From the sequence record MH816966: a stretch of 64,000 bases of DNA; one strand, written 5' to 3'. Below, piece after piece: positions 14,848 through 29,440 of this stretch. A program made the position numbers and the translations under genes. The first letter of the stretch is position 1, and every line of letters begins with the position of its first letter. The notes under the pieces are model-generated. The model saw only the letters and a list, made by a program, of their open reading frames with translations, had not been told where the DNA came from and did no database searches. The stretch is from Escherichia phage FEC19.

Positions 14848-15174
14848 ATGAACGAAAAAGATACGAAGCAACGCGAACGTGCAACACACGTCGGCATCGT
14901 TGAGTCCTTCCTTAATACAAGACTGAATTCAAGTCTTACAATTATGCGATTCCTGGGTCAACCAGACAGAATCAAATTCATCTTTGCCGCAAATCCGGTA
15001 TCGCTTTACATCCCTGTTGAATCCATGGCGTACCTGGTGCGCGACGAGCAAGGGTGGAAGATACCAAACACGACTGTTTTCTTCAGCCACGTTGACGGTG
15101 AGATGTTTGAACGAAAAGAAGATTGCCATTTTATTCCAGTATATCTGGACCTTGAAAGCGTAGTGGAGTTATAA
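14848..15174 (+). CDS. hypothetical protein, first gene of plus-strand block
   Basis: 108-aa ORF; stop overlaps helicase start. Confidence 0.45.
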   Translation: MNEKDTKQRERATHVGIVESFLNTRLNSSLTIMRFLGQPDRIKFIFAANPVSLYIPVESMAYLVRDEQGWKIPNTTVFFSHVDGEMFERKEDCHFIPVYLDLESVVEL

Positions 15175-16358: not shown

Positions 16359-16517
16359 TGTTGACGTAAATTTACGAAAAATAAAACTGAAAATCAGTTT
16401 AATTAAAGTGGCATCGCCGCCAGAGTTTTTAGTTGCTACTGGCGGCGACTGAAGGCATAATTAAGTTATCCCAAACGGGGAATATAAAATAAACTAATTT
16501 ATTTAAGGACTGTGAAT

Positions 16518-17357
16518 ATGGCCGAAGCAATCAAAGTATTATCTAAAGAAGAAAAACAAGCAGCTGCAGCAGAACGTCGTCGCGTGGCTGAAGAAAAACG
16601 CCTGGCTAAAAAGAAAGAAGCCGAAGAAAAACGCCAGAAGCGTGAGCAGGAAAAACAAGCCAAGCGTGAAGAAGCTGCGCTGAAACGCAAGCAGGCTGCT
16701 GATGAGAAGGCTCAGAAGCGTGCTGAAGAAGCAGCGAAGAAAGCCAAAGAGCGTGCAGAAAAGGCTGCTGCTAAGAAAGCAGAGCGTGAAGCCGCTAAAG
16801 CAGCAAAAGAAATCGAAAAGGCAAAGGCTAAAGAAGAAGCCAAGCGCCTGAAAGCTGAACAAGCTGCTGCTAAGAAAGCAGAGCGTGATCAAGCCCGTGC
16901 TGCAGCGAAGGCCGAAAAAGAGAAGGCCAAAGAAGAAGCTAAAGCGAAACGCAAGGCAGAGCGTGAAGCTGCTAAGATTGCGGCTAAAGAAGCTGCAGAA
17001 AAGCAGAAAGAACAGCGTAAGAAAGAAGCTGAAGAACGTCGCAAAGCCATCGCAGAACGTAAGGCTGCTAAAAAGGCAAACGGTCAGCGTCGTGCAAAAG
17101 CAACCCACTTCATCTACACTGGCAATGGCCTGAGCCAGCCGCAAGAGCATTCCACCCGTGGACGCGTTCTGGCGGCGATCAAAGAAGGCGAAGTTGGCGT
17201 GGCGCAGTCTATCGATGAGCTGGGCGAAAAAGTTAAAGATCAACTGTTTGGCGCTTCCGTTCGCTCCTACCTGAGCAAGCTGGAAGAGATGGGCCACATC
17301 GAGTTTGTCGATGTTGAATCCAACGAAGATGCCGAAGACGGTGATCAAGCGGAATAA
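16518..17357 (+). CDS. K/A/E-rich low-complexity charged-repeat protein with small globular C-terminal domain
   Basis: ~200 aa of AEEKR/AKKAER-type repeats; ATG at 16518 preferred over GTG at 16512 (AAGGA RBS). Confidence 0.55.
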   Translation: MAEAIKVLSKEEKQAAAAERRRVAEEKRLAKKKEAEEKRQKREQEKQAKREEAALKRKQAADEKAQKRAEEAAKKAKERAEKAAAKKAEREAAKAAKEIEKAKAKEEAKRLKAEQAAAKKAERDQARAAAKAEKEKAKEEAKAKRKAEREAAKIAAKEAAEKQKEQRKKEAEERRKAIAERKAAKKANGQRRAKATHFIYTGNGLSQPQEHSTRGRVLAAIKEGEVGVAQSIDELGEKVKDQLFGASVRSYLSKLEEMGHIEFVDVESNEDAEDGDQAE

Positions 17358-17384
17358 CCTTAGGACGGTTATGCAGCGGTAATT

Positions 17385-17411
17385 GACCCACACTTGTTGT
17401 GGGTCTTTTTT
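17385..17411 (+). terminator. intrinsic terminator
   Basis: gacccaca / tgtgggtc stem followed by tttttt. Confidence 0.7.
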
Positions 17412-17489
17412 CATCTGTACTAAATAAAATGACTTGTTGCTGTAAAATAATTTAGCTATTATACTTCTCATATCACCCACAAAGGACAA

Positions 17490-18485
17490 ATGAACATGAA
17501 ACAACCTGTAATGATTATCGGCGGCGGACTGGCAGGACTTATCACCGCGTGTCACTTCCCGAACTCTGTTGTGTACGAAGCAGGGGAACGAGCGCAACAG
17601 CACAAGGCGCTGCTACGCTTTCGCAGCGAAGAAGTAAGCCGTATTACCGGAATCCCTTTTAAGGCCGTGACAGTTGACAAGGCTGTGTATTTTCGCGGCA
17701 ACTACTATCACGACCATTGCCCAATCAACCTTGCCAATATGTATTCCATGAAGGTCACCAATCAATTTGGCAGCCGTTCAATCATGAAGCTTAAGACTGC
17801 AACGCGTTATATTGCGCCTGATGACTTTTATGATCAGCTTGTCGACAAACTGGGTGACCGCATATTCTTTGATACTCCGGTTGATACTCTTTGCGGCTAT
17901 AGCGAGACGCCAATCATCAACACGTCGCCGCTGCCAGTAATGATGAAGCTTGCTGGGATTGATCAAAAGCTTGATTTCTCATTTGATAAAGCAAACATTC
18001 GCGTTTACCGCTTTAAGATTAAACGTAAGTGTGATTTGTATCAGACAATTTACTTCCCTGACTACTCCGTCAGAACTTACCGCGCATCAATTACTGGTGA
18101 CACGCTTATCATTGAAACAATTCCTTTGGTCAGCGTGAGTGAAGCTGCAGTTGAAGCCGCTGGCGGCATCACTCGTTACCGTGACATGAAGCTGCGCGCA
18201 GAAGTCGACGAAGTGTTGACAGCCTTTGGCCTCTCATGGAGTGACATTGCTCTTGAAGAAGTTGAAAAGGTCGACCAGAAATATGGCAAGATTGTCGACA
18301 TTCCGAAAGACTTGCGACACGCCCTACTCCTGCAGCTGACTATGGATTTGAACGTGTTCAGTGTCGGTCGATTTGCTACCTGGCGCAACATTTTGCTTGA
18401 TGACGTTGCCCATGACCTTGTTGAAGTTGAAAAACTCATCAAAGCAAATAACTATCAAAAATTTGCTTATATTGCTAATAAATAA
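17490..18485 (+). CDS. FAD/NAD(P)-binding Rossmann-fold oxidoreductase
   Basis: N-terminal VMIIGGGLAGLITA (GxGxxG) followed by acidic residue. Confidence 0.55.
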   Translation: MNMKQPVMIIGGGLAGLITACHFPNSVVYEAGERAQQHKALLRFRSEEVSRITGIPFKAVTVDKAVYFRGNYYHDHCPINLANMYSMKVTNQFGSRSIMKLKTATRYIAPDDFYDQLVDKLGDRIFFDTPVDTLCGYSETPIINTSPLPVMMKLAGIDQKLDFSFDKANIRVYRFKIKRKCDLYQTIYFPDYSVRTYRASITGDTLIIETIPLVSVSEAAVEAAGGITRYRDMKLRAEVDEVLTAFGLSWSDIALEEVEKVDQKYGKIVDIPKDLRHALLLQLTMDLNVFSVGRFATWRNILLDDVAHDLVEVEKLIKANNYQKFAYIANK

Positions 18486-21653: not shown

Positions 21654-22205
21654 ATGCCACATTTTAAAATTGAACAAATCGCCCTGTCAATTCCAGATGC
21701 TCAGCGCGCACAGGATTTTCTGGCTAAAATCGGCCTGACAGAATGGTTCCATGATCATGTTGTTGCTACTGGTCGCGTATTTGAAGCTGATGACTTTAAA
21801 GGTCAGCGCGGCGATTGCACCAACGAAGCTGACTTGCGCTTCAACTATCAAGCTGGCAACGGCACCGATGGCGGCGCTGGTAAGCCTCTTGAACTTGAAA
21901 TTCTTGACTACACGAAAGGCCGCAACTGGATTAACGAAAACATCGAATACATCGATGCACATGACAATCAGGTTAGCCATCTTGGTATGCACGTGACTGC
22001 CGCTGAACTTGCTGAATGGCGCAAGTTCTTTAAAGAAGAAGGCATTCAGGTTGCGCAGGAAGTTGTGACCGACTCTCACACCAACCCAAACATTGCTGGT
22101 CAGCGTCGTTACAACTATGTGATCTTTGATACGCGTGAAATCATTGGTGTCGACCTTAAGTTCATCGTGCGGTTGAATCAAGACGGTACTCCGTACACTG
22201 TATAA
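21654..22205 (+). CDS. VOC-fold (glyoxalase/dioxygenase-like) protein, putative
   Basis: Two beta-alpha-beta-like modules with His residues (HFKIEQIALSIPD, SHLGMHV); weak. Confidence 0.4.
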   Translation: MPHFKIEQIALSIPDAQRAQDFLAKIGLTEWFHDHVVATGRVFEADDFKGQRGDCTNEADLRFNYQAGNGTDGGAGKPLELEILDYTKGRNWINENIEYIDAHDNQVSHLGMHVTAAELAEWRKFFKEEGIQVAQEVVTDSHTNPNIAGQRRYNYVIFDTREIIGVDLKFIVRLNQDGTPYTV

Positions 22206-27702: not shown

Positions 27703-27966
27703 ATGGTACGCATCCTTGAACGTTACAAAAATGAAGCTACTGGCGCAATCGCGTTCAAACGTCTTTTGGTCAAAGAAATTGACGGTATGTTCCGCGTTGT
27801 AAAAGAGTTTGATTATGGCAACGGTGCTGGGGTGAATACCGTAATTATGCCTGGCATCAAGGCATATAAGACTTTAAAAGGCGCTGAGAAGGCTTTGGCG
27901 GCTTGGAAACCTGAACGTTATCAAATGACCCGTGTTGAAGGGCTAATGCAAGAAGGTAAAATATGA
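27703..27966 (+). CDS. hypothetical protein
   Basis: 87-aa ORF with promoter-like TTGACT-18-ATAATT upstream. Confidence 0.45.
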   Translation: MVRILERYKNEATGAIAFKRLLVKEIDGMFRVVKEFDYGNGAGVNTVIMPGIKAYKTLKGAEKALAAWKPERYQMTRVEGLMQEGKI

Positions 27967-28520
27967 GCAATATTAATTGGGAAGATGATTTGCCGCAGGT
28001 TGCTCCTGAGAGCATTCAGGAGCGTCTTGCGCGCTTAGTATCTGAATTGGCAGAGCGCCAAGAAGCTTTGACAGAGCTTGAAGATGAAGCTGATATGCAA
28101 AAGCAGCGCATCAGTGAAATCAAAACTGTTCTGCTTCCTGGCGTTATGGATGAGCTTGGCGTGTCCGAAATCAAGCTTGAAGACAAGACCAAAATCAAGG
28201 TCGAGTCAAAAGTAAACGCTTCAATCAAGAAAGAAAATGAATTGAAGGTATTCGATTGGCTTGTCAACAATGGTTACGGCGGCTTGATCAAGTCCAGCGT
28301 CACGGCTGAGTTCGGTCGCGAAGAAATCGAGCAAGCGCAAGAGATTGTTGCCGCGCTGCGTGAAGATGGTGTTGAAGCCACGTTGAAACAAGGCGTTCAT
28401 TCTGCTACACTGAAGTCGTTTGTAAAAGAACAGCTGGAAGCGGGCAATCCAGTTAGTGAAGATATTAGCGTTTTTGAATACAAAGAAGCTAAAATAACCT
28501 TGCCTAAAAGCAAAAAGTAA
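27963..28520 (+). CDS. hypothetical acidic coiled-coil protein
   Basis: 185-aa ORF. Confidence 0.45.
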   Translation: MSNINWEDDLPQVAPESIQERLARLVSELAERQEALTELEDEADMQKQRISEIKTVLLPGVMDELGVSEIKLEDKTKIKVESKVNASIKKENELKVFDWLVNNGYGGLIKSSVTAEFGREEIEQAQEIVAALREDGVEATLKQGVHSATLKSFVKEQLEAGNPVSEDISVFEYKEAKITLPKSKK

Positions 28521-28579: not shown

Positions 28580-29440
28580 ATGTCTAAGAAAGAAACCACC
28601 GAAGTTGCAGTGAAAAACACCCAGATGTCCGCTATGGCTGATTTTGTCGACATGACCGATTTTGGCGCTGGTTTTGAAGGTGCCGATGCCGATGCGTATG
28701 CCATTCCTTTTATCGTCGTACTGCAGAAGATGTCTCCTATGGTCGACGAAGATGATCCAAAACACGTTCCTGGCGCAAAGGCTGGCATGCTTTACAACAC
28801 CGTTACTGGTGAGTTGTATGACGGCAAGAAAGGCGTGCAGATCATCCCTTGCGCATTCAAACGCACCTTCATTCTTTGGGGCGGTCGCGAGTCCGACGAT
28901 AAAGGCTTTAAAGGTGAATTCACCAAAGAGCACGTTGATGCAGAAGTCGCGGCAGGCCGCGCTGTTGAGATCAACGGTAAGGTATTCGTGCCGGACGAAA
29001 ACGGCAAGGTGCACGAGAAGAAATCTCCTTACTACGCAGATACACGCAACCACTTCGTAATTCTGTTGAACGAAGAAACTGGTGAATTTGGTAGCGCAAT
29101 GCTGTCTCTGACTTCTTCCATGATCAAGCCGTCTCGCATGCTGATGACCGCTCTGCAGCAGAAGAAAGTTCAGACTCCGCAGGGTCTGAAAACGCCGCCG
29201 ACCTTTATGAACATCGTTCGCATGGGTACTGCATCCCAGTCCAAAGACGGCAACACCTGGTCTGTTCTGAAGTTTGAGCTGGAAGGTCTGGTGCAGGACA
29301 AAGGCCTGTACGAAGTCGCCAAGGCATTCCACAACGACGTAGTGGGCGGTAACGTTAACATCGACCGCAGCAAGCAGGAAGAAGCAAGCGGTGCCGCTGG
29401 TCCTGTCAATGAAACTCCTACCGACGCAGAAGAGTTTTAA
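28580..29440 (+). CDS. putative single-stranded DNA-binding protein
   Basis: Acidic C-terminal tail ending ...TDAEEF, reminiscent of SSB tails; position in replication block. Confidence 0.35.
   Translation: MSKKETTEVAVKNTQMSAMADFVDMTDFGAGFEGADADAYAIPFIVVLQKMSPMVDEDDPKHVPGAKAGMLYNTVTGELYDGKKGVQIIPCAFKRTFILWGGRESDDKGFKGEFTKEHVDAEVAAGRAVEINGKVFVPDENGKVHEKKSPYYADTRNHFVILLNEETGEFGSAMLSLTSSMIKPSRMLMTALQQKKVQTPQGLKTPPTFMNIVRMGTASQSKDGNTWSVLKFELEGLVQDKGLYEVAKAFHNDVVGGNVNIDRSKQEEASGAAGPVNETPTDAEEF

What the first reader, a model, noticed from the sequence alone, without database searches (positions are those of the whole stretch)
16518..17357. Highly repetitive K/A/E-rich protein inside the replication block
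About 200 residues of near-pure Lys/Ala/Glu/Arg repeats (AEEKRLAKKKEAEEKRQKREQEK...) are followed by a ~80-aa globular-looking C-terminal domain. The composition resembles histone H1-like and nucleoid-associated proteins, so it may be a DNA- or RNA-binding scaffold, possibly for nucleoid remodelling or protection of phage DNA. The opposite strand carries a long spurious ORF from the same repeats.
Basis: seen in the sequence. Interest (0 to 1): 0.55.

Follow-up and report, generated by a model that had tools for sequence, protein, structure and literature searches.

The report
Abundant phage helix-plus-winged-helix protein
This is a real, strongly conserved and apparently very abundant phage gene that joins a 27-nm charged helix built from 11-residue repeats to a small winged-helix domain; databases wrongly call it "TolA", and it most likely binds and organises phage DNA, though nobody has tested that.

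Summary
The CDS at 16518-17357 (+) encodes 279 aa. Residues 11-190 are 88% Ala/Lys/Glu/Arg, followed by a globular domain and an acidic tail. The window is a Wifcevirus, an E. coli myovirus related to the Pseudomonas PB1-like phages.

- **The gene is real.** Ten Wifcevirus orthologues are all exactly 840 nt, and pN/pS is 0.027. The antisense ORF is spurious.
- **It is expressed.** Published mass spectrometry found it in CsCl-purified virions of two sister phages. Its codon adaptation is the highest in the window.
- **The "repeats" are about 17 degenerate 11-residue units.** Lys/Arg recur every 3.68 residues in 16 of 17 diverged orthologues, giving one straight basic stripe on a predicted continuous helix.
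- **It is not TolA.** It has no membrane anchor and no TolA domain III, and the BLAST match disappears once composition is corrected.
- **It is not histone H1-like.** The helix is 21% Glu, and many orthologues are near-neutral overall.

Best reading: an abundant DNA-associated architectural protein, confidence about 0.4. Its function is untested and no paper I could search addresses it.

The parts
16416..16448 (+). Inverted repeat CGCCGCCAG-N15-CTGGCGGCG (hairpin, about -22 to -25 kcal/mol as RNA) between the helicase stop and the gene. It overlaps the -35 of the promoter-like site. It could be an attenuator or end of the helicase transcript, or an operator. Its function was not established.
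   Evidence: Sequence. Retained in 10 Wifceviruses with few changes and no compensatory pairs. Each related genus also has a hairpin at this position.
16433..16461 (+). Sigma-70-type promoter-like site, TTGCTA-17 nt-CATAAT, about 57 nt upstream of the start codon.
   Evidence: Consensus scan, 9 of 12 matches. By eye, comparable -35/-10 pairs (or an extended -10) are present upstream of the orthologues in LMA2, MTx, XcP1 and JSF39. The intergenic region is nearly invariant among Wifceviruses. Activity is inferred, not shown.
16505..16509 (+). Ribosome-binding site AAGGA, 8 nt before the ATG.
   Evidence: Sequence. A ribosome-binding site is annotated at the equivalent place in phage Mansfield.
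16518..17357 (+). CDS of the 279-aa protein (phrog_4765). GenBank records call it 'hypothetical protein', 'TolA protein' or 'putative structural protein'.
   Evidence: Exactly 840 nt in 10 orthologues. 76 of 86 variable sites fall at codon position 3, and pN/pS is 0.027. CAI 0.595 is the highest in the window. MS detection is reported in PMC7048862.
16545..17093 (+). Residues 10-192: a predicted single continuous alpha-helix of about 27 nm, made of about 17 degenerate 11-residue (hendecad) repeats. Lys/Arg occupy repeat positions 1, 4/5 and 8, and Glu is excluded from those positions, so there is one straight basic stripe.
   Evidence: AF2 helix 10-192 with pLDDT above 90. Lys/Arg period 3.68 to 3.70 in 16 of 17 orthologues. 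Rows-of-11 register. DNA repeats spaced 33, 99 and 198 nt. pN/pS 0.007 within the genus.
17082..17309 (+). Residues 189-264: conserved basic arm G-x-R-R-x-K-A-T-H followed by a winged-helix-like domain (b1 197-200, H1 213-222, b2 229-231, H2 232-243, H3 248-257, b3 261-264). Invariant residues are R192, Q209, S212, R214, G227, R249 and K254.
17310..17354 (+). Residues 265-279: acidic, low-confidence C-terminal tail (DVESNEDAEDGDQAE, net about -8). It is present, with variable length, in most orthologues.
   Evidence: tail net charge -2 to -18 in most homologues; absent in P0023 and P0028.
17385..17411 (+). Rho-independent terminator: GACCCACA-cttgt-TGTGGGTC followed by TTTTTT.
   Evidence: Annotated as a terminator in WFH and Mansfield. 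A strong terminator follows the orthologue in all seven genera examined.
16539..17603 (-). Spurious antisense ORF of 354 aa, rich in F/L/S/C. It is stop-free only because it is the complement of GCN/AAR/GAR codons.
   Evidence: CAI 0.27. pN/pS 1.73 in its frame. Shortened by a stop in Mansfield.

Best explanation
The gene encodes an abundant architectural protein made by the phage during infection and associated with nucleic acid, most likely DNA.

Proposed mechanism (inferred):
1. The C-terminal winged-helix domain, together with the conserved RRxK arm just before it, anchors the protein on DNA.
2. The 27-nm N-terminal helix presents a straight stripe of Lys/Arg that recurs every 11/3 residues. 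This stripe either lies along neighbouring DNA or projects from it as a rigid charged rod.
3. Many copies therefore coat, space or bundle replicating phage DNA.
4. The acidic tail may fold back on the basic surfaces and tune binding.

The protein is transcribed as its own unit (promoter, hairpin, strong terminator) inside the replication module, next to the Dda-like helicase. Its presence in CsCl-purified phage would follow either from association with phage DNA or from true packaging.

Shown: the gene is coding, highly constrained, expressed and recovered with purified phage. The hendecad periodicity is conserved, and the predicted folds are as stated.

Inferred: the DNA ligand, the coating or organising role, the role of the acidic tail, and promoter activity.
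For: - **Fold:** winged helix with good model confidence. The residues invariant across 25 diverged homologues are mainly basic or polar. They sit on the putative recognition helix (R249, K254), at the start of H1 (S212, R214) and in the N-terminal arm (R192).
- **Basic stripe:** Lys/Arg periodicity of 3.68 to 3.70 is conserved in 16 of 17 orthologues whose sequences are otherwise unalignable. Acidic residues are excluded from the stripe positions.
- **Abundance:** CAI 0.595 is the highest of about 75 ORFs in the window, above the likely major capsid gene at 0.547. The weights behave sensibly on E. coli genes: rplY 0.758, pal 0.677, tolA only 0.391.
- **Detection:** MS of CsCl-purified vB_Eco4M-7 gave 7 peptides, 25.8% coverage and score 1197.6, versus 936 for the capsid protein. 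The maximum coverage obtainable from tryptic peptides is about 30%.
- **Loss with DNA:** the orthologue S1_069 was not found in Pbunavirus SCUT-S1 particles from which the DNA had been released by LiCl and digested with DNase. That fits a protein that leaves with the DNA.
- **Context:** it forms an independent transcription unit next to the Dda-like helicase in seven genera and in distant metagenomic phages.
- **Constraint:** pN/pS is 0.007 across the helix and there is no length change in 10 phages.
- **Weak leads:** sub-threshold similarity to the nucleoid-associated protein YejK/NA37 and to the Csa3 wHTH domain.
Against: - There is no direct evidence of nucleic-acid binding.
- Winged helices also bind proteins, peptides or RNA. 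The best structural matches are the MetAP2/Ebp1/Arx1 insert (which I recall contacts ribosomal RNA) and RiPP leader-peptide recognition domains, not classical DNA-binding regulators. Foldseek finds nothing significant in the PDB.
- Outside Wifcevirus the helix is only weakly basic, and many orthologues are neutral or acidic overall.
- The helix shrinks to about 35 residues in one homologue (P0027), so a long rod is not essential to the family.
- MS scores are not quantitative. ECML-117 gave only 2 peptides.
- CAI is a proxy for expression, and the weights were recalled from memory.
- The YejK similarity is inconclusive (hhalign probability 42%).
Confidence: 0.4

Rival explanations
1. It is a true virion component. 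It would be an internal head protein loaded into the procapsid, lying against the packaged DNA or the inner capsid wall, and delivered into the cell with the genome. There it might protect or organise the incoming DNA.
For: - It was detected in CsCl-gradient-purified particles of two Wifceviruses. In vB_Eco4M-7 its score exceeds those of the portal, major capsid and sheath proteins.
- Other MS-detected products of genes in the 'replication block' belong to Pam3 gp33/gp34-like families. Genes outside the main structural module may therefore contribute to virions.
- Several Pbunavirus records call the orthologue 'putative structural protein'.
- The Pa193 cryo-EM paper reports unassigned trimer-like poly-alanine density of about 16 residues per chain under the capsid hexons, with no side-chain features. 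A degenerate Ala-rich repeat helix could look like that.
Against: - It was absent from the 31 proteins found in SCUT-S1 ghost particles.
- It was not among the 19 gene products built into the E217 virion according to the paper's abstract, and my term searches of the E217 and Pa193 texts did not turn it up.
- The gene has its own sigma-70-like promoter in the replication module, not in the late structural operons.
- Clearly non-structural proteins (helicase, endolysin, reductase) were also detected in the same preparations, so carry-over occurs. Nucleoprotein might also band close to phage in CsCl (my inference).
- The 'structural protein' label appears to come from annotation. No MS evidence for it could be retrieved.
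- DNA-bound proteins cannot pass through the portal motor, so a separate capsid-targeting route would be needed. No targeting signal is evident.
Confidence: 0.25
2. It is a replisome adaptor. In this reading the winged helix is a protein-interaction module, like the C-terminal winged helix of RPA32 or archaeal PBP2. It would recruit the neighbouring Dda-like helicase, or the polymerase or primase, and the long helix would act as a rigid spacer or tether.
For: - Adjacency to the Dda-like helicase is conserved across seven genera and in distant metagenomic contigs.
- No SSB is annotated in the Wifcevirus genome.
- Acidic C-terminal tails are typical of SSB-type hub proteins (general knowledge).
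Against: - The whole replication module is syntenic in this phage group, so adjacency carries little weight. In P0028 the context differs.
- A stoichiometric adaptor would not need the highest codon adaptation in the genome.
- The invariant surface residues are Arg/Lys/Ser/Gln rather than hydrophobic.
- The conserved basic stripe has no obvious role in a pure spacer.
- The N-terminus is not conserved, so the rod has no second binding module to space.
Confidence: 0.15
3. It is an RNA- or ribosome-associated factor. It would use a MetAP2/Ebp1-like insert fold plus a lysine-rich helix to bind rRNA or mRNA and so affect translation or RNA stability during infection.
For: - SelB winged helices, which bind RNA, are also among the hits.
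- High abundance would suit a ribosome-directed factor.
Against: - The Foldseek matches are not significant (best E 0.77, TM about 0.5).
- The genomic context is DNA replication.
- Co-purification with DNA-filled virions and absence from DNA-free ghosts points to DNA rather than ribosomes.
Confidence: 0.07
4. It is a TolA homologue or periplasm-spanning envelope protein, as annotated in several GenBank records. Alternatively, the region is non-coding low-complexity DNA.
For: - The 'TolA protein' label appears in ECML-117, vB_Eco4M-7, Ro157lw, Epa7 and in BFVD entries.
- An uncorrected BLASTP against E. coli TolA gives E = 1.6e-32.
Against: - The BLAST hit disappears with composition-based statistics and SEG filtering.
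- There is no hydrophobic anchor: the maximum 19-residue Kyte-Doolittle mean is 0.61, versus 2.45 for TolA.
- The C-terminal domain is unrelated to TolA domain III.
- TolA domain II lacks the 3.68-residue periodicity (power 1.7).
- There is no Pfam or NCBIfam hit.
- The non-coding reading is excluded by pN/pS 0.027, 76 of 86 variable sites at codon position 3, the invariant length and the MS peptides.
Confidence: 0.01

Closest known systems
TolA domain II (E. coli Tol-Pal system), the name given to this protein in several GenBank records
   Same: A long Lys/Ala/Glu-rich segment that is predicted to be helical. The composition is similar enough to give E = 1e-32 in an uncorrected BLASTP.
   Different: - No N-terminal membrane anchor.
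- The C-terminal domain is a winged helix, not TolA domain III.
- No similarity remains after composition correction.
- TolA II has no 11/3 Lys/Arg periodicity (best period 5.3; power 1.7 at 3.68).
- It is a cytoplasmic phage protein, with no TolQ/TolR partner annotated in the sister-phage regions examined.
Linker histone H1/H5 and bacterial 'H1-like' K/A/P-repeat proteins
   Same: A winged-helix globular domain joined to a long Lys/Ala-rich extension, and apparently high abundance.
   Different: - The domain order is reversed.
- The extension is predicted to be a rigid helix of 11-residue repeats with 21% Glu, not a disordered K/A/P tail.
- Family members are often near-neutral overall.
ER/K single alpha-helix (SAH) domains (myosin VI/X, caldesmon) and synthetic A(EAAAK)n rigid linkers (from general knowledge)
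   Same: A very long helix predicted to stand alone. It is rich in E, K, R and A and has almost no hydrophobic seam: 7 hydrophobic residues other than Ala in 180.
   Different: - The hallmark enrichment of Glu(i) to Lys(i+4) pairs is not consistently present (z about 0 in most orthologues).
- Basic residues are instead segregated into one stripe with exact 11/3 periodicity.
- There is no folded domain at the N-terminal end for the helix to space.
Hendecad (11-mer, 11/3) repeat helices: group 3 LEA proteins, apolipoproteins, alpha-synuclein (from general knowledge)
   Same: Tandem degenerate 11-residue repeats that keep one face of the helix straight. Group 3 LEA repeats are also K/A/E-rich.
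   Different: - The conserved stripe here is cationic, not hydrophobic, so lipid binding is unlikely.
- No LEA_4 or apolipoprotein Pfam match at E <= 0.1.
- It is fused to a winged helix.
KfrA of IncP plasmids (from memory; not tested beyond Pfam)
   Same: A small HTH or winged-helix DNA-binding domain fused to a long Ala-rich helical tail. The gene is preceded by an inverted repeat that overlaps its own promoter.
   Different: - The DNA-binding domain is N-terminal in KfrA.
- The KfrA tail is, as I recall, a heptad coiled coil.
- No KfrA_N Pfam match.
YejK/NdpA (Pfam NA37), a nucleoid-associated protein of enterobacteria
   Same: Weak sequence resemblance over H1-b2-H2 of the domain (YejK residues 208-253).
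   Different: All matches are below threshold. hmmsearch against the PDB gives E 0.36. Four of 25 family members hit Pfam NA37, with best E 0.0046. hhalign probability is 42% over 41 columns. The overall architecture is different.

Membership tests
TolA (Tol-Pal) | N-terminal transmembrane anchor (domain I) | tested here: not met
   The maximum 19-residue Kyte-Doolittle mean is 0.61 in the target, versus 2.45 for E. coli TolA residues 14-32.
TolA (Tol-Pal) | C-terminal TolA domain III | tested here: not met
   No Pfam or NCBIfam match. BLASTP of the C-terminal domain against TolA gives E >= 16. The predicted fold is a winged helix.
TolA (Tol-Pal) | Sequence similarity that survives correction for composition | tested here: not met
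   E = 1.6e-32 without correction; no hit with composition-based statistics plus SEG.
Linker histone H1/H5 | Globular GH1/GH5 winged-helix domain (Pfam Linker_histone) | tested here: not met
Linker histone H1/H5 | Long, strongly basic, disordered K/A/P-rich tail | tested here: not met
   The region is 21% Glu with no Pro, and is predicted to be a continuous helix with pLDDT above 90. Net charge across the family is 0 to +15.
Winged-helix (wHTH) fold superfamily | Three-helix bundle with helix-turn-helix, packed against a small beta-sheet | tested here: met
Winged-helix (wHTH) fold superfamily | Binding of DNA through the recognition helix | not testable with these tools
   R249 and K254 on H3 and R192, S212 and R214 are invariant, which is compatible with DNA binding. 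No binding data exist.
ER/K single alpha-helix (SAH) | Long isolated helix without a hydrophobic seam | tested here: met
   AF2 gives a single helix over residues 10-192. Hydrophobic residues other than Ala make up 4 to 6%. The oligomeric state was not tested.
ER/K single alpha-helix (SAH) | Enrichment of Glu(i) to Lys/Arg(i+4) salt-bridge pairs | tested here: not met
   z for E-to-K at i+4 is -0.1 in the window protein and between -1.9 and +2.0 across 17 orthologues.
Canonical heptad coiled coil | 3.5-residue periodicity of hydrophobic a/d positions | tested here: not met
   No significant 3.5 periodicity of Ala plus hydrophobic residues. The dominant periodicity is 3.68, and it belongs to Lys/Arg.
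Hendecad (11/3) repeat helices | Coherent 11-residue repeat with 3.67-residue periodicity over the whole segment | tested here: met
   Peak at 3.68 to 3.70 in 16 of 17 orthologues, with normalised power 8.5 to 28.6 against a null maximum of 9.9. The register is visible in rows of 11.
YejK/NdpA (Pfam NA37) | Pfam NA37 match above the gathering threshold | tested here: inconclusive
   Only sub-threshold hits: 4 of 25 members with best E 0.0046, PDB profile search E 0.36, hhalign probability 42%.

The most novel reading that the evidence does not exclude
The protein is a previously unrecognised kind of phage 'chromatin' protein. A winged-helix anchor carries a 13-33 nm alpha-helix whose 11/3-periodic Lys/Arg stripe lies straight along DNA. 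Two hendecads span 3.3 nm, about one DNA turn. The protein would be loaded into capsids with the genome, or line the inner capsid wall, which could account for the unassigned poly-Ala density under Pa193 hexons. It would then enter the cell with the DNA and shield it from host nucleases or silencing proteins. This would be a conserved feature of the therapeutic Pbunavirus phages and their relatives.
Probability: 0.1. Interest if true: 0.8.

Novelty: new variant of a known kind. Interest (0 to 1): 0.5.

Why it matters
- **It is a conserved, prominent protein of a therapeutic phage group.** It is found in 355 phage records spanning the PB1-like group: Pbunavirus (widely used in Pseudomonas phage therapy), Wifcevirus, Myosmarvirus, Bcepfunavirus and Carpasinavirus. 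It appears to be one of the most highly expressed gene products, yet it has no known function and is mislabelled "TolA" or "structural protein".
- **These phages have no annotated SSB or histone-like protein.** An abundant DNA-organising protein would fill a gap in how they replicate and package DNA. That includes the reported 3-5 minute replication cycle of Wifceviruses.
- **The helix design is unusual.** It is a naturally occurring, exactly phased, cationic-stripe hendecad helix, which is of interest for protein design and for understanding how long helices could read a polyanion.
- **The mis-annotation can be corrected now.**

Tried and rejected
**Family and homology searches**
- Pfam, NCBIfam and PADLOC on the whole protein or the C-terminal domain gave nothing significant. 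PHROGs gave only the uncharacterised phrog_4765.
- phmmer and a profile search against PDB sequences gave only noise, plus a weak YejK hit. hhalign against E. coli YejK gave 42% probability, which is inconclusive.
- The word-indexed protein search returned only 5 fragments. The exhaustive search found only 27 cluster representatives among 1.84 billion proteins, so the family is narrow.

**Structure searches**
- Foldseek against the PDB gave nothing significant. BFVD returned only orthologues. afdb50 was unavailable.

**Related loci**
- The search for related loci failed with the alignment and found nothing with P0023.

**Literature**
- Nine searches found no functional study.
- The Ceyssens 2009 PB1-like paper is not held.
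- The supplements of the Pa193 LC-MS paper and of the 14-1 ONT-cappable-seq paper are not held.
- The 'ORF66' text hits concerned unrelated phages: D3, N4-like phages and phiLCL12.

**Readings tested and rejected**
- A heptad coiled coil and a classical ER/K SAH were both tested and not met.
- TolA membership was tested and rejected.
- Coding potential of the antisense ORF was tested and rejected.
- The upstream hairpin was checked for compensatory changes and none were found.
Full report
**What the window is.** The 1.3-kb region around the finding is 95.6 to 99.2% identical to 27 phage records. All are Wifcevirus or unclassified close relatives infecting E. coli or Shigella: RCIP0363, ECO71P1, WFH, WFC, ECML-117, vB_Eco4M-7 and BASEL phages Bas98-101. 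These are myoviruses of about 68 kb, distantly related to the Pseudomonas PB1-like phages (Pbunavirus).

**Checking the observation.** The ORF runs from ATG 16518 to TAA 17355-17357 and encodes 279 aa, with an AAGGA ribosome-binding site 8 nt upstream.
- Residues 11-190 are 88% Ala/Lys/Glu/Arg, carry net charge +25, and contain only seven hydrophobic residues other than Ala.
- Residues 191-262 have ordinary composition.
- Residues 263-279 are strongly acidic, net -9.
- The upstream gene is a Dda/RecD-like SF1 helicase.
- Downstream lie a flavoprotein-like gene, ThyX, a polynucleotide kinase, a DnaE-type polymerase and a DnaB-like helicase.

**The gene is real and the antisense ORF is not.** Ten Wifcevirus orthologues all have a CDS of exactly 840 nt.
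- Of 86 variable nucleotide sites, 76 fall at codon position 3.
- pN/pS is 0.027 overall, 0.007 in the low-complexity part and 0.067 in the globular part.
- In the frame of the 354-aa antisense ORF, pN/pS is 1.73. That ORF has CAI 0.27 and is interrupted in phage Mansfield.

Within the genus, then, even the exact sequence and length of the K/A/E region are under very strong purifying selection. This is unlike a freely slipping repeat.

**The protein is expressed and looks abundant.** A published study ran LC-MS/MS on CsCl-gradient-purified vB_Eco4M-7 and ECML-117, which are 97.6 and 98.4% identical to the window here.
- It detected the 31.1-kDa "TolA protein" in both phages.
- vB_Eco4M-7 gave 7 peptides, 25.8% coverage and score 1197.6. 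The same table scores the capsid protein at 936, the portal at 1112 and the sheath at 891.
- ECML-117 gave 2 peptides (PMC7048862).
- Only about 30% of the protein can yield tryptic peptides of 7 residues or more, so the coverage is close to saturating.

The codon adaptation index (CAI, scored against E. coli usage) is 0.595. That is the highest of about 75 ORFs in the window, whose median is 0.283 and whose likely major capsid gene scores 0.547. The N- and C-terminal parts score alike. I recalled the weights from memory, but they behave as expected on E. coli genes: rplY 0.758, pal 0.677, typical genes about 0.3. The K/A/E-rich tolA scores only 0.391, so composition alone does not explain the high value.

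**Transcription unit.**
- A sigma-70-like site (TTGCTA-17-CATAAT, 16433-16461) and an overlapping 9-bp inverted repeat (16416-16448) precede the gene.
- A strong intrinsic terminator follows it at 17385-17411.
- The upstream intergenic region is almost invariant among ten Wifceviruses.
- In Pbunavirus LMA2, Serratia MTx, Burkholderia BcepF1, Xanthomonas XcP1, Salmonella PCSE1 and Vibrio JSF39 the orthologue is likewise preceded by a 110-200 nt spacer containing a hairpin and followed by a terminator. Promoter-like hexamers were visible by eye in four of them (LMA2, MTx, XcP1, JSF39).

Promoter activity is inferred, not shown.

**Family and context.** The C-terminal 94 residues find orthologues in 355 phage records. 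There are 293 Pseudomonas phage records, plus Serratia, Burkholderia, Xanthomonas, Pantoea, Salmonella and Vibrio phages. An exhaustive search of 1.84 billion representative proteins found only 27 clusters, so this is a narrow family specific to this phage lineage (phrog_4765, function unknown).

Every full-length member has the same plan:
- a K/A/E-rich region of variable length, from about 35 to about 260 residues;
- the motif G-x-R-R-x-K-A-T-H;
- the conserved domain;
- usually an acidic tail.

The gene follows the Dda-like helicase in all seven genera and in two distant metagenomic phage contigs of about 70 kb. One very distant homologue has a different context.

**The "repeats" are hendecads with a basic stripe.** AlphaFold2, run on the single sequence, predicts one uninterrupted helix over residues 10-192 with pLDDT above 90. 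At 1.5 Angstrom per residue that is about 27 nm.
- There is no heptad hydrophobic seam.
- The salt-bridge signature of classical ER/K single helices, Glu(i) to Lys(i+4), is not consistently enriched.
- Instead the Lys/Arg positions are periodic at 3.68 to 3.70 residues, which is 11/3, in 16 of 17 diverged orthologues. Normalised power is 8.5 to 28.6. In 300 shuffles of the window sequence the 95th percentile was 7.3 and the maximum 9.9.
- When the sequence is written in rows of 11 anchored at the conserved RR, Lys/Arg fill columns 1, 4/5 and 8. Acidic residues are almost absent from those columns. Examples are RAEKAKLKEAE in LMA2 and KAAEAQAKREA in PCSE1.
- The register holds for about 17 repeats without a stutter.
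- The DNA-level direct repeats spaced 33, 99 and 198 nt fit the same 11-aa unit.

The conserved property is therefore a straight cationic stripe on a long helix, not bulk positive charge. Outside Wifcevirus the region carries only 0 to +15 net charge, and many orthologues are neutral or acidic overall.

**The C-terminal domain.** With a 27-sequence alignment, AlphaFold2 gives a confident model (pLDDT 87.5, pTM 0.75) with the order b1-H1-b2-H2-H3-b3.
- Foldseek against the PDB finds nothing significant. BFVD returns only orthologues labelled "TolA protein" or "putative structural protein".
- Residues invariant across 25 diverged homologues are R192, Q209, S212, R214, G227, R249 and K254. They lie in the basic arm, at the start of H1 and on H3, the usual recognition helix.
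- Weak leads are YejK/NA37 (hhalign 42%, inconclusive) and the Csa3 wHTH domain.

**What it is not.**
- *TolA.* BLASTP against E. coli TolA gives E = 1.6e-32 only when composition correction is switched off, and nothing when it is on. The protein has no membrane anchor. Its C-terminal domain is unrelated to TolA III. TolA domain II lacks the 11/3 periodicity. The GenBank name is a low-complexity artefact.
- *Histone H1.* Glu makes up 21% of the region, which is predicted to be a rigid helix. The domain order is reversed. There is no Linker_histone match.

**Most likely mechanism (inferred).** I think the protein is an abundant DNA-associated architectural protein.
- The winged helix and its RRxK arm anchor it to DNA.
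- The hendecad helix lays its basic stripe along DNA or projects from it as a rigid charged rod.
- The acidic tail may modulate binding.

One indirect point favours DNA association. The protein is prominent in DNA-filled, CsCl-purified Wifcevirus particles. Its orthologue S1_069 is missing from the 31 proteins identified in Pbunavirus SCUT-S1 particles whose DNA had been released with LiCl and digested with DNase, although the neighbouring gene products ORF70 and ORF72 were seen there. I put confidence at about 0.4, because no binding experiment exists and winged helices can also bind proteins or RNA.

**Rivals.**
- *A true capsid-internal, co-injected protein (0.25).* It overlaps with the main explanation. 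The MS data support it. So does the unassigned, featureless poly-Ala density under Pa193 hexons. The ghost-particle MS, the gene's position and promoter type, and evident carry-over of non-structural proteins all weaken it.
- *A replisome adaptor with an RPA32C-like winged helix (0.15).*
- *An RNA- or ribosome-binding factor (0.07).*
- *TolA homologue or non-coding DNA (0.01).* Effectively refuted.

**Novelty and verdict.** The sequences are in the databases but are uncharacterised and mis-annotated. I found no functional study in nine literature searches. The combination of a precisely phased cationic hendecad helix with a winged-helix anchor is, as far as I could determine, undescribed. I classify it as a new variant of a known kind: a winged-helix nucleic-acid-binding protein. 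Interest is moderate (0.5). It is a core, apparently very abundant protein of a therapeutically important phage group with a distinctive design, but its function is still only inferred.

Noticed in passing
window 17490-18485 (+): A 331-aa protein starting MKQPVMIIGGGLAGL, which is a Rossmann GxGxxG motif for FAD or NAD. It belongs to phrog_4828 (unknown function) and has no Pfam hit. The Mansfield record calls it UDP-galactopyranose mutase on the basis of HHpred. It follows the K/A/E gene in Wifcevirus, Pbunavirus, MTx, XcP1 and PCSE1. A sugar-nucleotide flavoenzyme inside a replication block could hint at DNA or nucleotide modification.
   Followed up: partly
window 28580-29440 (+) and 27963-28520 (+): Two 'hypothetical' genes inside the replication/lysis block match Pfam Pam3_Gp34 (E 4e-86) and the Pam3 gp33-like family DUF7307 (E 3e-37). 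The first has the second-highest CAI in the window (0.561). By mass, both appear to correspond to products detected in purified virions (vB_Eco4M-7_70 and _71, ECML-117 gp68 and gp75; the first also to SCUT-S1 ORF54). They may be virion proteins encoded outside the main structural module.
   Followed up: partly
window 21654-22205 (+): A 183-aa protein with a weak Glyoxalase_4 hit (E 8e-4) and a high CAI of 0.487. By mass it appears to be the 'glyoxalase family protein' detected with a high score (718) in CsCl-purified vB_Eco4M-7. Its role is unknown.
   Followed up: no
window 16416-16448 (+): A 9-bp perfect inverted repeat, CGCCGCCAG-N15-CTGGCGGCG, overlaps the -35 of the promoter-like site upstream of the gene. 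It is conserved in ten Wifceviruses, and a hairpin occurs at the same place in related genera. It could be an operator for autoregulation by the winged-helix protein, or an attenuator of the helicase transcript.
   Followed up: partly
homologues P0008, P0012, P0015, P0016, P0018, P0020, P0021: Several distant family members begin with His-rich N-termini (MSHTHHHDAG..., MHKHHNHDHNP..., MSHGHHNHG...) ahead of the K/A/E helix. The Wifcevirus protein has nothing comparable. These might bind metal.
   Followed up: no
whole window / sister phage ManiWeber_Bas99 (locus L009): No single-stranded DNA-binding protein is annotated in the part of the sister genome I read (Bas99, 20-68 kb). That region does carry its own DnaE-type polymerase, two primases, DnaB-like and Dda-like helicases and a ligase.
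   Followed up: partly
window 14848-15174 (+) with antisense ORF 14929-15129 (-): In Pbunavirus Banzai the anti-Druantia gene DadIII-1 is reported to lie antisense within PBanzai_071, which by its number lies next to the Dda-like helicase PBanzai_070 (PMC12390725). The window has a 108-aa gene immediately upstream of the helicase, with a 66-aa antisense ORF. I did not check whether they are equivalent.
   Followed up: no
Pseudomonas phage Pa193 capsid (PMC11456595): The cryo-EM paper reports unassigned trimer-like density under the capsid hexons, modelled as three poly-Ala chains of about 16 residues with no side-chain features. A link to the Ala-rich repeat helix of this family is speculative.
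   Followed up: no
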